From assembly GCF_030013205.1 (NCBI RefSeq), contig NZ_CP122648.1: DNA of 64,000 nt; one strand, written 5' to 3'. The number at the start of each line of letters is the position of its first letter. Positions within the stretch are counted from its first letter, which is position 1. Shown in pieces: positions 1 through 11,833 of the stretch. The DNA is from Escherichia coli. GTDB taxonomy: Bacteria; Pseudomonadota; Gammaproteobacteria; Enterobacterales; Enterobacteriaceae. A program made the translations under genes and the position numbers. The notes below the pieces were generated by a model. It searched no databases and was not told where the DNA came from. It saw only the letters and a program-made list of their open reading frames with translations.

Positions 1-402
1 ACCGACGTAGCCCCACTGTTCGTCCATTTCAGCGCAGACAATCACATCACTGCCCGGTTGTATGCGCGAGGTTACCGACTGCGGCCTGAGTTTTTTAAGT
101 GGCGGAAAATCGTGTTGAGGCCAACGCCAATAATGCGTGCACTGGCGCGACATCCGACGCCATTCATGGCCATATCAATGATTTTCTGGTGCGTACCGGG
201 CTGAGAGGCGGCGTAAGTGAACTGTAGTTGCCATGTTTTACGGCAGTGAGAGCAGAGATAGCGCTGATGTCCGGCGGTGCTTTTGCCGTTACGCACCACC
301 CCGTCAGTAGCTGAACAGGAGGGACAGCTGATAGAAACAGAAGCCACTGGAGCACCTCAAAAACACCATCATACACTAAATCAGTAAGTTGGCAGCATCA
401 CC
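1..402 (-). mobile_element. IS1, partial copy truncated by the window edge (window starts 366 bp inside the element)
   Basis: 1-402 is identical to 11339-11740 of the complete IS1 copy; terminal repeat ...ggcagcatcacc ends at 402; complete insA plus the 5' part of insB (1-153). Confidence 0.9.
72..347 (-). CDS. insA: IS1 InsA
   Basis: 91-aa ORF identical to the insA ORF of the second IS1 copy (11410-11685). Confidence 0.9.
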
Positions 403-772
403 GTGCCTATAATACCCCCGTTGTTGCAATTTATGCTGATTACAAAACGCGATGGCCCGCAATGGTCGATGTTTCGGAGTCAGTCGTCGTTGGGCAAAAA
501 ATTGACAATATAAGTCTGGATGAATTCGCAAAGGCATTAAAAAGTGTTTTGGCGAGAATATGAGGCAGTATTTATGCATATTAATGCCGATCTGTTATGA
601 ACGGTGGTGTCATCAATACTCTGTGGCTGGTCAATCATTACAGAAAGCCAGTCTTTGGAGCAAAGCTGTACTCACCGGATACAACCATAGTCACACCGAA
701 CGCGAATCTGGCGGTATCGCATTTTTATTTATTCATTTTCTGTGAGAGAAGGGCAAGTTCTGTAGAGGGAAT

Positions 773-806
773 GTAAAAAAGAGTGCCCCGAATGGAGCAC
801 TCTTTA
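773..806 (-). terminator. intrinsic terminator downstream of yeeJ
   Basis: 8-bp stem aagagtgc/gcactctt with a T-run on the minus strand, directly after the yeeJ stop at 825. Confidence 0.5.
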
Positions 807-824
807 AGGAATTATAGCGGAAAA

Positions 825-3800
825 TCAGAGGTTTTTATAACATGTCGCATGAGCAAACCCAAGCTTTTCATATACACTTTGCTCACCTGTTGCCAGAGAA
901 ATTACGTATTGTTCGCTTGAGTTTGCGGGACTAGATGACCAATACATATTTGATTGAAAACCAGCTTCAGTCGTGTAATGCCCCATATCTCCCCATTCAC
1001 TGTACAGTGACCCGATGCCTCGGGAACGACTATGGTTTAAATGGTCTCCAAGGGGAAGTGTGTAGCCATTGCTACTGCAAAAATTTTCAGCAAGGCTGTA
1101 TATCATGAAAGCATCGCCGGCGTTCACCCACCAACTCTTCACTCGGATTTCGTATATATAGCTAGGGCCGCCTGTTTTTGGCGTCGCCGTAATCCTCTCC
1201 CATTTGCTGCCGACATTTTTAAATGTCACTTTACCGGTAGCATCAACATCGACCCAGGAGCCAGAGCTTGAAAACTCATAATCAGCCGCCGTTTTTCCTG
1301 GAGCAAAGTTGTCATTATTCAACTGATAATACGCCCCGGTGAATCCCTGCGAAGGGAATGTAGTTGTTGGTAGGTTAGCACCATTGACCAACACTGTACC
1401 GCTCATTATTTTGTCTTCTGCGCGAGTGAATTGTATTGTGGTACTCAGACCCGCTTGATGAACACCATTCAATACAGGGATCAGCGTTGCGATACCCTCT
1501 CCGCCGCCTGTAACAGTGGCTTTGTAATCACCGTTGATATTTTGACTGTAATCAATTGCGCTAATTTTCACATAGGGCACGTTAGTACCTGATTGCACAA
1601 ATTCCATCCCTTCAGAAACTTTGATCGGATTGCCTGATATATCGTACAAAACAAGATGTAGCTCAGCACTATCGGTATAGTCCCCTTTCAGTGATGACCG
1701 ATTGTTCTTAAGGACGGACTGCGAGGCGTCAGCCGGGCCTGCCACCAGCGTTATATCTACTGTTTGCATTCCACCAGCGGTCGTGACTGCGCTTACCGTG
1801 ACGCTACCTGTCATCGCTCCTTTCACGCTTGTTGTCGCGATTCCGTTTTGATCGGTCACCGCTGTTAATGACGTTAATGTGGCAGAGCCGCTTTTTAAGG
1901 TGAAGTACACAGTGAGACCTTCGATCAGGTTACCACTGCCATCCTCAACCGTTGCCTTTAAGGTACTTAAATCACTGTTGGTGGCGGCGATAGTCGATGG
2001 ATCAGCGATAAAGCTAGCAACATGTGCGGTGCTTGAGTTGCCAGTGACTTTCACGGTTGTCTGTGTCTGTATTGTTACGCCGTTATGGAACGATGCAGTC
2101 ACCGTATATGTACCGACTTTATTGCTGGTCAGAACGACTGGTGCCTGACCTGAAGAGTTGGTTCTCACTTTTCCGCCACTTAACGTTGCACCTTCTGGCG
2201 TTACGCTAAAGTTGATGACCTGACCTTCCACTGGAGTGCCATTTGCAGAAGTTAGCGTTGCCGTCAGAGTTGCACCTGTTGGGGAATTGACACCGATAAG
2301 CGGGCTGGACGCCGTGAGTGTCAGTTTTTCATCAATAGCCTCCAGTTGTTTCTCAATTGAGGCTCCATTCGCCAGGGATGCTTTCACCATATACGAACCG
2401 TTTCTTTCGGGCGTCATGGTGACCTCGGCTATACCCTGCGTATTAGTAGACACCGTATTCTGGCTGATGATCATTTGCGAGGATGGCTCTGCACTGAATG
2501 TCACGGGTTGATGCGCAACCGGGTTGCCAAACTGGTCGTTAACGTGAGCTTTAACTGCTACGTCTTGTGCGACCATTACCTGACCTTCAGGTATCTCCAG
2601 ACTGGTAAACGTCGCAGAATTAACATCTGCACTGGCATTCAGTAATCGCGAGATGACTTCAGTAGGTTTATCTGCCAGAGAGGCTGAAACTGTTTTCAGT
2701 CCGACCTCGGTGCTTGTCACAAGAATTTCAGCGAATCCCTGACTATCCGTTTCAACGCTGGTGCTGCTTAGCGTGACGGAGGTTCCGCGGAAATTAACTT
2801 TTATGCCTTCTACCGGGTTGCCGTTAGCGTCAGTGACGCTTGCCGTCATGGTTGCGCCCTCGGTCGTGCTGACGACGAATGAGTATACAGAGGTTAAGGA
2901 GGTCAGTTTTGCGGTACCAGCATCGGCAATCAACGTCACCTGTTTCGTATCACTGACACCATAATTGTTCACGCTAACTGTCACGGGGTAGGTGCCGGAT
3001 TTTGTACCGCTCAGTGTAACTTCAGCCTTGCCGTTGATGTCTGTAATGGCGGAACCGCCTTGTCCGAGAGTGAAGCTTGCGCTCACATCTGCCGGTAGCG
3101 TGAATGTCACCGCCTCATTGGCTAACGGGTTGCCGTTTCCATCAGTCACTGTTGCCTGAAGTGTGGTCATCCCAACGTTATTGGCGATAAAGTTGTCCTC
3201 GGTAACGTTAAGATTAACCTGCGCAGTGAGCGTATCCGCAGTAAAGTTCACCACCAGTTGTCCGCTCTTACCGCCAGCCATCGATGCTGTAACAGTATGA
3301 GCGCCTGCTTTTGTACCTTTCAGCGTGACTTTCGCTTTGCCTTCAGTATCCGTAATCGCTTTACCGCCATCGCTCAGCGTGAAGTTCGCCCTCACATCTT
3401 CCGGCAGAGTAAATGTTACCTCAGTGTTGGCTATCGCATTGCCCTCTGTATCAGCGACTGTTGCTGTGAGTGTCGTGAGATCGTTATTGTCGGCAATCAC
3501 CGGATCCTTAGAGGCTGCCAGCGAGATTTCAGCATTCGCGACGTTCGGCACATAGGTCACTGTTTGTTGCATCGAATCACCATTTTCGAGGGTTGCCGTC
3601 ACTTGATAAACCCCGGCTTTTGTAGCGGTAAAGCTTGCGTAAAAATTGCCGTAGTAGTTGGTAGTATATATACCAGTTATTACTGGGGGTCACGCCTTCA
3701 CTTGGTGAAACGCTGAGGGTCACCTGATGCTGGGGGACACCGTTGCCGTAATTATCCTTCACCTCAATATACAGACTGGTTGTCTCGCCTGCGGAGACTG

Positions 3801-10779: not shown

Positions 10780-10987
10780 TATTGATAAACCTCATCACAG
10801 ATTTAAGGGTGAACAAATCTCTGCCATTGCTGACATATAAGAATGAAACTGGATATTTATTACGGTGCTGTTTTAAAATCCTGCCGGGATTTCGTTATCC
10901 TGGTGAATAACTTTATCGACCGGATAACAGTTGCCTGGAATTTTCTGTTCGGTTGCTGCGGCCATACATTCCGGTAATGACTCCAAC

Positions 10988-11491
10988 TTACTGATAGTGT
11001 TTTATGTTCAGATAATGCCCGATGACCTTGTCATGCAGCTCCACCGATTTTGAGAACGACAGTGACTTCCGTCCCAGCCTTGCCAGATGTTGTCTCAGAT
11101 TCAGGTTATGCCGCTCAATGCGCTGAGTATAACGCTTGCTGATAACGTGCAGCTTTCCCTTCAGGCGTGATTCATACAGCGGCCAGCCATCCGTCATCCA
11201 TACCACGACCTCAAAGGCCGACAGCAGGCTCAGAAGACGCTCCAGTGTGGCCAGAGTGCGTTCACCGAAGACGTGCGCCACAACCGTCCTCCGCATCCTG
11301 TCATACGCGTAAAACAGCCAGCGCTGACGTGATTTAGCACCGACGTAGCCCCACTGTTCGTCCATTTCAGCGCAGACAATCACATCACTGCCCGGTTGTA
11401 TGCGCGAGGTTACCGACTGCGGCCTGAGTTTTTTAAGTGGCGGAAAATCGTGTTGAGGCCAACGCCAATAATGCGTGCACTGGCGCGACAT
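10988..11491 (-). CDS. insB: IS1 InsB
   Basis: 167-aa ORF inside IS1, overlapping insA in the -1 frame. Confidence 0.9.
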
Positions 11492-11685
11492 CCGACGCCA
11501 TTCATGGCCATATCAATGATTTTCTGGTGCGTACCGGGCTGAGAGGCGGCGTAAGTGAACTGTAGTTGCCATGTTTTACGGCAGTGAGAGCAGAGATAGC
11601 GCTGATGTCCGGCGGTGCTTTTGCCGTTACGCACCACCCCGTCAGTAGCTGAACAGGAGGGACAGCTGATAGAAACAGAAGCCAC
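11410..11685 (-). CDS. insA: IS1 InsA
   Basis: 91-aa ORF inside IS1. Confidence 0.9.
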
Positions 11686-11833
11686 TGGAGCACCTCAAAA
11701 ACACCATCATACACTAAATCAGTAAGTTGGCAGCATCACCTACATTCCTGCATTGTTCTGTGAACACTGACTGCAATATCAACTGACTCTCCGGAAACAA
11801 GAAAAACCGTCAGAATAAGTGCAAATACTGGAT

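What the first reader, a model, noticed from the sequence alone, without database searches (positions are those of the whole stretch)
1..11740. Two IS1 copies in direct orientation bracket about 10.6 kb containing yeeJ, asnT, mtfA, serU, int, xis and the exonuclease gene
Both copies have insA and insB on the minus strand. The left copy runs off the window edge, so its target duplication cannot be checked. Directly repeated IS1 elements can drive deletion or amplification of the intervening segment, which here includes the prophage attachment region and two tRNA genes.
Basis: seen in the sequence. Interest (0 to 1): 0.3.

Follow-up and report, generated by a model that had tools for sequence, protein, structure and literature searches.

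The report
Two independent IS1 insertions, unrecombined
Two identical copies of the common jumping gene IS1 landed separately about 11 kb apart in a pig E. coli chromosome; they could recombine and delete or duplicate the DNA between them, but no sequenced genome shows that, so the finding is real but ordinary.

Summary
The window is 100% identical to the chromosome of the pig Stx2e strain E. coli K_EC180. Window 1-402 is the last 402 bp of a full 768-bp IS1. Window 10973-11740 is a second 768-bp IS1, identical and in the same orientation. They bracket 10,570 bp.

The left copy sits in a glycosyltransferase-9 (yeeL-like) gene with a perfect 9-bp target duplication, GTGCCTATA. The right copy sits in a small phage DUF1482 gene with an 8-bp duplication, TACATTCC. 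These are therefore two separate simple insertions. They are not a transposed composite unit and not the scar of a larger rearrangement.

The genome carries about 21 IS1 places. A neighbouring pair this close is expected about once per genome by chance (P≈0.6).

Among 5,426 complete E. coli genomes, none carries the predicted deletion junction or the tandem-duplication junction. Relatives show other IS1 events at these same copies: a ~15.8-kb inversion, a 2.4-kb adjacent deletion and an 868-bp tandem duplication.

serU lies inside the interval and is present in 5,419 of 5,426 genomes, so the deletion is probably selected against. yeeJ is a pseudogene here, and the prophage is a truncated remnant without attR.

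This is known biology of low interest.

The parts
1..402 (-). Left IS1, last 402 bp of a 768-bp element (366 bp lie off-window). insA is whole at 72-347, insB is visible only at 1-153, and the left terminal repeat is at 380-402.
   Evidence: the full copy is at L001 8001-8768, 100% identical to the right copy
403..411 (.). Right-hand copy of the 9-bp target duplication GTGCCTATA of the left IS1. The other copy lies immediately left of the element, off-window.
   Evidence: flanks read from L001
405..563 (+). 3' stub of the glycosyltransferase family 9 (yeeL-like) gene split by the left IS1
   Evidence: annotation; the intact 350-aa homologue hits Pfam Glyco_transf_9; the empty site is intact in about 4,930 genomes
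825..5400 (-). yeeJ (inverse autotransporter / Ig-like adhesin) pseudogene: a 3,277-bp deletion with its junction at about 5439/5440, plus a 1-bp indel, relative to the intact 7,983-bp gene of strain EC581
5842..5917 (-). tRNA-Asn (GTT), at the asnT position
6018..6815 (-). mtfA (DgsA anti-repressor, Peptidase_M90)
6909..6998 (+). tRNA-Ser (CGA), serU, the integration site of the prophage remnant
   Evidence: present in 5,419 of 5,426 genomes
7051..8076 (-). Prophage tyrosine integrase, a 341-aa ORF. PGAP labels 7026-8076 'frameshifted', but the ORF is 99% identical over its full length to an integrase annotated as intact in another genome.
8076..8279 (-). DUF4224 protein in the xis position (function inferred from position only)
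8338..10779 (-). 813-aa prophage exonuclease (Exonuc_VIII plus Rv2179c-like 3'-5' exonuclease domains), intact
10873..10971 (-). 3' stub of the DUF1482 phage gene split by the right IS1
   Evidence: the intact 63-aa homologue hits Pfam DUF1482
10965..10972 (.). Left copy of the 8-bp target duplication TACATTCC of the right IS1
10973..11740 (-). Right IS1, complete at 768 bp: insA 11410-11685, insB 10988-11491, A6C frameshift site, terminal inverted repeats
11741..11748 (.). Right copy of the 8-bp target duplication TACATTCC
11742..11846 (-). 5' stub of the DUF1482 gene, followed by dicB (11834-12022) and the rest of the prophage remnant, which ends after the large terminase gene at 26797

Best explanation
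These are two separate, simple transposition insertions of one IS1 variant that has multiplied in a lineage of pig-associated Stx2e/ETEC E. coli.

The older copy landed in a glycosyltransferase-9 (yeeL-like) gene. The younger copy landed in a small DUF1482 gene of a defective lambdoid prophage integrated at serU. Each made its own short target duplication.

The two copies happen to lie in the same orientation, 11,338 bp apart start to start. They are 768 bp long and 100% identical, so they form a ready substrate for RecA-dependent unequal or intrachromosomal recombination. That event would delete, or tandemly duplicate, one IS1 plus the 10.6-kb interval (yeeJ pseudogene, asnT, mtfA, serU, int, DUF4224, exonuclease).

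In this genome that recombination has not happened. It is not seen in any complete E. coli genome, most likely because the deletion removes serU, which nearly all E. coli keep. The insertions and their independence are shown. The recombination potential is inferred from established IS biology. The counter-selection is an inference.
For: 1. Identity and orientation: (768 of 768 bases identical, both on the minus strand).

2. IS1 features: length 768 bp, terminal repeats, insA/insB Pfam hits (Zn_ribbon_InsA, HTH_Tnp_IS1, DDE_Tnp_IS1) and the A6C frameshift motif.

3. Independent insertions: the left copy is flanked by GTGCCTATA on both sides and the right copy by TACATTCC on both sides. The outer flanks do not match each other.

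4. Empty sites exist. The uninterrupted glycosyltransferase site is found in about 4,930 genomes. The uninterrupted DUF1482 site is 100% identical in EC556, EC571 and EC581.

5. Order of events: EC581 has the left IS1 but an empty right site. The left copy is occupied in 14 pig genomes and the right copy in 11 in the collinear arrangement, plus 3 in an inverted arrangement.

6. The pair is real. It occurs in independent complete assemblies from Korea, Belgium, the Netherlands and France.

7. IS1 expansion: there are 21 IS1 places on the K_EC180 chromosome, and all 40 listed 100%-identical matches to this variant come from pig or swine E. coli.

8. No recombinant exists in the collection. 0 of 5,426 genomes hold the deletion junction and 0 of 5,426 hold the duplication junction. 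One search serves as a positive control, because flank-IS1-flank arrangements are joined and reported there.

9. Precedent: direct IS1A copies about 11.5 kb apart in CP4-6 recombine recurrently (PMC5009759). IS1-IS1 deletions of about 8 kb arose in the long-term evolution experiment (PMC4173774).

10. serU is retained in 5,419 of 5,426 genomes.
Against: No reads were available, so rare deletion or duplication subpopulations in the sequenced culture cannot be excluded.

The absence of products among complete genomes rests on only about 11-14 genomes that carry both copies, which is a small sample.

The idea that loss of serU is counter-selected is an inference from conservation. Seven genomes lack a full-length match, so loss may be tolerated.

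An 8-bp rather than 9-bp duplication at the right copy is less usual for IS1. From my own knowledge it is documented for IS1, but I did not look that up here.
Confidence: 0.9

Rival explanations
1. The right IS1 is a daughter of the left IS1, made by short-range ('local hopping') transposition rather than arriving from a distant copy. This refines the best explanation and is compatible with it.
For: The left copy is older: it is present in EC581, where the right site is empty. The two copies are 100% identical. IS transposition in E. coli is biased to nearby sites (PMC5009759 abstract).
Against: The same 768-bp sequence is also 100% identical at distant loci and on plasmids of the same strains, for example near selB at 154 kb, so the donor cannot be identified. 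Random scatter of 21 copies already gives a pair this close with P≈0.6.
Confidence: 0.3
2. The IS1-10.6 kb-IS1 block is a composite transposon (Tn9-like architecture) that moved into this place as one unit.
For: Two IS1 copies in direct orientation flank a segment, as in Tn9 (own knowledge).
Against: Each IS1 has its own matching target duplication, and the outer flanks differ (GTGCCTATA against TACATTCC). The interior is the native yeeL-yeeJ-asnT-mtfA-serU chromosomal order found in thousands of genomes without IS1. No true plasmid copy of the interior was found; the hits are megabase-scale records or unrelated partial matches.
Confidence: 0.01
3. The left IS1 is the scar of a different, larger rearrangement unrelated to the right copy.
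For: In relatives, these IS1 copies do border rearrangements: a 2,438-bp adjacent deletion at the left copy in EC581, and a ~15.8-kb inversion ending at the right copy in P15-25, ETEC6333 and ETEC6334.
Against: In this genome both halves of the split glycosyltransferase gene abut the left IS1 with a perfect 9-bp duplication. Removing the IS1 and one duplicate restores a site 99.9% identical to uninterrupted genes in other genomes.
Confidence: 0.02
4. The two-copy arrangement is an assembly artefact in which repeats were collapsed or misjoined.
For: IS copies are classic sources of misassembly.
Against: The identical arrangement appears in 11 complete assemblies from different laboratories and countries. 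Both junctions of both copies are consistent with target duplications.
Confidence: 0.01

Closest known systems
The IS1A pair in the CP4-6 cryptic prophage of E. coli K-12 (about 278.5-290.5 kb)
   Same: Two IS1 copies in direct orientation about 11.5 kb apart, partly in defective prophage DNA. It is a documented hotspot for recombination that deletes the interval (14 of 98 IS-recombination events; fixed in strain NCM3722; PMC5009759).
   Different: Here the interval also contains core chromosomal genes, including the single-copy tRNA gene serU. No deletion product is seen in 5,426 genomes. The IS1 is a different sequence variant: all 40 listed 100%-identical matches come from pig or swine strains, and most E. 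coli records match at only 90-99%.
IS1-IS1 recombination deletions and inversions in the E. coli long-term evolution experiment
   Same: Deletions of about 8 kb and a 1.49-Mb inversion are attributed to recombination between IS1 copies (PMC4173774 Table 2). The relatives here show an IS1-bounded ~15.8-kb inversion.
   Different: Those events were observed as they arose in the laboratory. Here only natural isolates are compared, and the direct-repeat deletion itself is not observed.
IS1-flanked composite transposons such as Tn9 (own knowledge)
   Same: The architecture is IS1 - cargo - IS1 in direct orientation.
   Different: There is no shared outer target duplication. The cargo is native chromosome in its native place, and no second copy exists elsewhere.

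Membership tests
IS1 family insertion sequence | Length about 768 bp with imperfect terminal inverted repeats of about 23 bp | tested here: met
   The right copy (10973-11740) is 768 bp. Its ends are GGTGATGCTGCCAACTTACTGAT and GGTAATGACTCCAACTTACTGAT. The left copy is 768 bp in L001.
IS1 family insertion sequence | insA and insB' reading frames joined by a -1 frameshift at an A6C motif, with InsA and DDE_Tnp_IS1 domains | tested here: met
   Pfam hits: Zn_ribbon_InsA 3e-21, HTH_Tnp_IS1 4e-28, DDE_Tnp_IS1 1e-74. AAAAAAC lies at element position 307. PGAP annotates 'IS1 family transposase, programmed frameshift'.
IS1 family insertion sequence | Short (8-9 bp) direct target-site duplication at each insertion | tested here: met
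   Left copy: 9-bp GTGCCTATA. Right copy: 8-bp TACATTCC. The third copy in relatives has 8-bp TGGAATTT.
Composite transposon (IS1-cargo-IS1, Tn9-like) that has transposed as a unit | One target duplication shared by the two outer ends of the whole unit | tested here: not met
   The outer flanks are GTGCCTATA (left) and TACATTCC (right). Each IS1 has its own duplication.
Composite transposon (IS1-cargo-IS1, Tn9-like) that has transposed as a unit | The unit is found at more than one genomic location or on plasmids | tested here: not met
   The left-site region occurs once per genome (median 1, maximum 2). Plasmid-collection hits to the interior are megabase-scale records or partial matches.
Direct-repeat IS recombination substrate (like the CP4-6 IS1A pair) | Two long, near-identical copies in the same orientation on one replicon | tested here: met
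   768 bp, 100% identical, both on the minus strand, 11,338 bp apart.
Direct-repeat IS recombination substrate (like the CP4-6 IS1A pair) | The recombinant product (single IS1 joining the outer flanks, or a tandem-duplication junction) is observed | tested here: not met
   0 of 5,426 genomes for the deletion junction and 0 of 5,426 for the duplication junction. Subpopulations within cultures could not be tested because no reads were available.
Integrated lambdoid prophage with a functional excision module | Tyrosine integrase next to the tRNA attachment site | tested here: met
   A 341-aa ORF with Phage_integrase and related domains, lying 53 bp from serU. It is 99% identical over its full length to an integrase annotated as intact, although PGAP flags it as frameshifted in K_EC180.
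Integrated lambdoid prophage with a functional excision module | A second attachment site (attR) and a complete set of structural genes | tested here: not met
   No repeat of 12 bp or more from the serU / attL region occurs at the far end. The prophage genes stop after the large terminase gene at 26797 and zinT follows; there are no portal, head or tail genes.

The most novel reading that the evidence does not exclude
The IS1 pair could act as a working 12.1-kb composite transposon. It might also be a frequent source of circular IS1-bounded excision products that carry serU, the left attachment junction, int, the DUF4224 gene and the exonuclease gene. That would give a crippled prophage's integration module a second, transposase- or RecA-driven route to mobility or copy-number change within pig STEC/ETEC populations.
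Probability: 0.03. Interest if true: 0.3.

Novelty: already known. Interest (0 to 1): 0.07.

Why it matters
It matters little beyond bookkeeping. Both IS1 copies are already annotated in public RefSeq records of this strain and its relatives, and recombination between direct IS1 copies is textbook biology.

The useful outcomes are modest:
- The left copy's target duplication is now checked, which settles that these are two independent insertions.
- The locus illustrates how an expanded IS1 variant is remodelling the yeeL-serU-prophage region in a pig Stx2e/ETEC lineage: gene disruptions, an adjacent deletion, an inversion and a mini-duplication in different isolates.

Tried and rejected
1. Composite-transposon reading: rejected on the target-duplication pattern and native synteny.

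2. Deletion product, searched with a chimeric outer-flank query: 0 of 5,426 genomes.

3. Tandem-duplication product, searched with a chimeric inner-flank query: 0 of 5,426 genomes.

4. Plasmid copies of the interior: only megabase-scale records in the plasmid collection, or partial yeeJ/mtfA matches.

5. attR, searched as any repeat of 12 bp or more from 6880-7060 elsewhere in the window: only one irrelevant 13-bp match at 63803.

6. The integrase as a clear pseudogene, as PGAP says: not upheld. The 341-aa ORF is full-length and 99% identical to one annotated as intact, so its status is left ambiguous.

7. Proximity of the two copies as meaningful clustering: rejected as unnecessary, because the simulation gives P≈0.62 for such a pair by chance.

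8. Assigning the IS1 to a named isoform (IS1A, IS1B and so on): not attempted beyond noting that PGAP calls it only 'IS1 family' and that most E. coli IS1 copies are 90-99% identical to it.
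Full report
**What is there**

A direct repeat joins window 1-402 to 11339-11740 at 100% identity and stops exactly at 402/11740. The IS1 left-end sequence GGTGATGCTGCCAACTTACTGAT occurs only twice in the 64-kb window, at 380-402 and 11718-11740, both on the minus strand. None is expected by chance.

The right element is a complete 768-bp IS1 at 10973-11740. It carries:
- insA (11410-11685, -) and insB (10988-11491, -);
- Pfam hits to Zn_ribbon_InsA, HTH_Tnp_IS1 and DDE_Tnp_IS1;
- the AAAAAAC frameshift motif;
- imperfect terminal inverted repeats.

The left element is cut by the window edge. insA is whole at 72-347, but only 51 codons of insB are visible.

The first 12.5 kb match nine pig E. 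coli chromosomes at 100%. Over 20,500 overlapping bases the window has no mismatch to E. coli K_EC180, NZ_CP062203.1. K_EC180 is a Stx2e-producing isolate from a weaner pig in Korea (PMC8071739).

In that record the left IS1 is a full 768-bp element identical to the right one.
- **Left copy.** It interrupts a glycosyltransferase family 9 gene at the yeeL position between shiA and yeeJ. It is flanked on both sides by the 9-bp sequence GTGCCTATA.
- **Right copy.** It interrupts a small phage gene of the DUF1482 family, not the exonuclease gene. It is flanked by the 8-bp sequence TACATTCC.

Each copy has its own target duplication, and the outer flanks differ. These are therefore two independent simple insertions. 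The block did not arrive as a composite transposon, and neither copy is the scar of a recombination or of a larger rearrangement in this genome.

**Contents of the 10,570-bp interval (403-10972)**

| Window coordinates | Feature |
|---|---|
| 405-563 | 3' stub of the glycosyltransferase gene |
| 825-5400 (-) | yeeJ, a pseudogene |
| 5842-5917 | tRNA-Asn, at the asnT position |
| 6018-6815 | mtfA |
| 6909-6998 | tRNA-Ser(CGA), serU |
| 7051-8076 | tyrosine integrase |
| 8076-8279 | DUF4224 protein in the xis position |
| 8338-10779 | 813-aa exonuclease (Exonuc_VIII plus Rv2179c-like domains) |
| 10873-10971 | 3' stub of the DUF1482 gene |

Compared with the intact 7,983-bp yeeJ of strain EC581, the yeeJ here has lost 3,277 bp, with the junction at about 5439/5440, and carries a 1-bp indel.

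PGAP labels the integrase 'frameshifted'. However, the 341-aa ORF is 99% identical over its full length to an integrase annotated as intact in another genome. I leave its status open.

**The prophage is a remnant**

Downstream of the right IS1 come dicB, an immunity and replication region, rusA, Q, three tRNA genes, lysis genes and the small and large terminase genes. The prophage genes stop at 26797, and zinT follows at 27184. There are no portal, head or tail genes. No repeat of 12 bp or more from the serU / attL region marks an attR. The element is thus already immobile as a phage, which weakens the significance of 'the prophage attachment region' lying between the IS1 copies.

**Is the arrangement more than chance?**

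The sequence identity is. The proximity is not. The K_EC180 chromosome holds 21 IS1 places. Random placement of 21 elements on 5.02 Mb gives the following:
- 0.93 neighbouring pairs within 11.3 kb per genome;
- P=0.62 for at least one such pair;
- P=0.38 for a pair in direct orientation.

**Distribution and history** (searches with empty-site queries)

- The left insertion is present in 14 complete genomes, all from pigs.
- The right insertion is present in 11 genomes in the collinear arrangement.
- The uninterrupted glycosyltransferase site is present in about 4,930 genomes.
- The uninterrupted DUF1482 site is 100% identical in EC556, EC571 and EC581.
- EC581 has the left IS1 with the same right-hand junction but an empty right site, so the left insertion is the older one.
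- All 40 listed matches at 100% identity to this exact IS1 sequence come from pig or swine E. coli, on chromosomes and plasmids.

**Has the predicted recombination happened?**

I built two chimeric queries.
- Outer-left flank plus outer-right flank would detect the deletion product. 0 of 5,426 genomes have the two halves joined.
- Inner-right flank plus inner-left flank would detect a tandem-duplication or circle junction. Again 0 of 5,426.

One search is the positive control for the method: flank-IS1-flank arrangements were joined and reported there as single places.

The interior has no true plasmid copy.

**What relatives show instead**

- **Inversion.** P15-25, ETEC6333 and ETEC6334 carry an inversion of about 15.8 kb. 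One end is the right IS1. The other end is a third, inverted IS1 in an RHS gene. The TACATTCC halves are split between the two junctions, and an 8-bp TGGAATTT duplication marks the RHS target. P15-25 and ETEC6333 were read directly. ETEC6334 was not read and is grouped with ETEC6333 from its matching rows. Two routes fit: insertion followed by recombination, or one-step intramolecular replicative transposition. The junctions cannot tell them apart.
- **Adjacent deletion.** EC581 has a 2,438-bp deletion starting exactly at the outer end of the left IS1. It removes the glycosyltransferase 5' half and most of shiA.
- **Tandem duplication.** ETEC4070 has an 868-bp tandem duplication of [IS1 plus 100 bp of right flank] at the left site. 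ETEC4071 gives the same three-piece, 2,336-bp match and was not read.

These IS1 copies are therefore active or recombinogenic in this lineage, but the direct-repeat deletion is not among the outcomes seen.

**Why the deletion may be absent (inference)**

The interval holds serU. A full-length match to serU is present in 5,419 of 5,426 complete E. coli genomes, with a median of one copy per genome. This suggests that its loss is selected against in nature. The sample is also small, since only about 11-14 genomes carry both copies.

**Comparison with what is known**

The closest precedent is the pair of direct IS1A copies about 11.5 kb apart in the CP4-6 cryptic prophage of K-12. They recombined in 14 of 98 IS-recombination events in mutation-accumulation lines, and the deletion is fixed in strain NCM3722 (PMC5009759). 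IS1-IS1 deletions of about 8 kb and a large inversion also arose in the long-term evolution experiment (PMC4173774).

The present locus has the same architecture and the same predicted behaviour. It differs in containing core genes and in showing no realised product.

**Verdict**

The biology is already known, and both elements are already annotated in public records. Interest is low.

Noticed in passing
L003 (P15-25) 8601-9368 and 24361-25128; L004 (ETEC6333), same coordinates: Three relatives carry an inversion of about 15.8 kb. It is bounded by the right IS1 and a third, inverted IS1 in an RHS gene, with an 8-bp TGGAATTT/AAATTCCA target duplication split between the junctions. Homologous recombination and one-step intramolecular transposition cannot be told apart. 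ETEC6334 was not read; it is grouped from its rows.
   Followed up: partly
L006 (EC581) 2635-3402, with left flank = L001 5503-5562: A 2,438-bp deletion starts exactly at the outer end of the left IS1 and removes the glycosyltransferase 5' half and most of shiA. This strain has an intact 7,983-bp yeeJ and no right IS1.
   Followed up: yes
L005 (ETEC4070) 3351-4986: There is a tandem duplication of an 868-bp unit, [IS1 + 100 bp of right flank], at the left site. The second IS1 abuts the duplicated flank precisely at its terminus. The mechanism is unclear, and an assembly artefact has not been excluded. ETEC4071 shows the same match pattern but was not read.
   Followed up: partly
window 2114/2115 and 5439/5440: yeeJ deletions of different sizes share one endpoint. 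K_EC180-type genomes lack 3,277 bp ending at window 5439. The O139:H1-type genome read here (P15-25) additionally lacks window 2115-5438, ending at the same 5439 junction. The shared endpoint is unexplained; it may reflect sequential deletions in the Ig-repeat array.
   Followed up: partly
window 4475-4774 and 5084-5383: A 300-nt direct repeat, 94% identical and spaced 609 bp apart, lies inside the yeeJ pseudogene. It probably reflects repeated Ig-like domains of the adhesin.
   Followed up: no
window 26797-27184: The serU prophage ends abruptly after the large terminase gene, 386 bp before zinT. There are no portal, head or tail genes and no attR. From my recollection of the K-12 gene order, yodB would lie between zinT and serU and seems to be missing. 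No IS sits at this junction.
   Followed up: partly
window 22037-22346: Three prophage tRNA genes lie downstream of the Q antiterminator. ARAGORN calls them Met(CAT), Thr(TGT) and Gly(TCC); PGAP calls the first tRNA-Ile, that is, a lysidine-type CAU tRNA. This is the position where Stx phages carry tRNAs and toxin genes (own knowledge); no toxin gene is present here.
   Followed up: no
window 6909-6998: serU here is 100% identical to that of an O157:H7 genome but differs at 2 of 90 bases from K-12. This is consistent with the prophage having supplied the 3' part of the tRNA gene on integration.
   Followed up: no
window about 33968-35161: PGAP names a porin gene between hchA and drpB 'ompC'. 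From my own knowledge, this is the position of the yedS porin pseudogene in K-12, so the name is probably a paralogue label. The gene looks intact here.
   Followed up: no
ETEC4068, row H9: One two-copy strain has an additional IS2 under the 12.5-kb match: the matched span is 14,201 bp against 12,866 bp in the others. Searches place the extra 1,335 bp between the two IS1 sites. This shows continuing IS traffic at the locus.
   Followed up: no
window about 56445-57867: A short integrase fragment and a frameshifted DUF5503 gene lie next to fliE. They probably mark another decayed mobile-element insertion.
   Followed up: no
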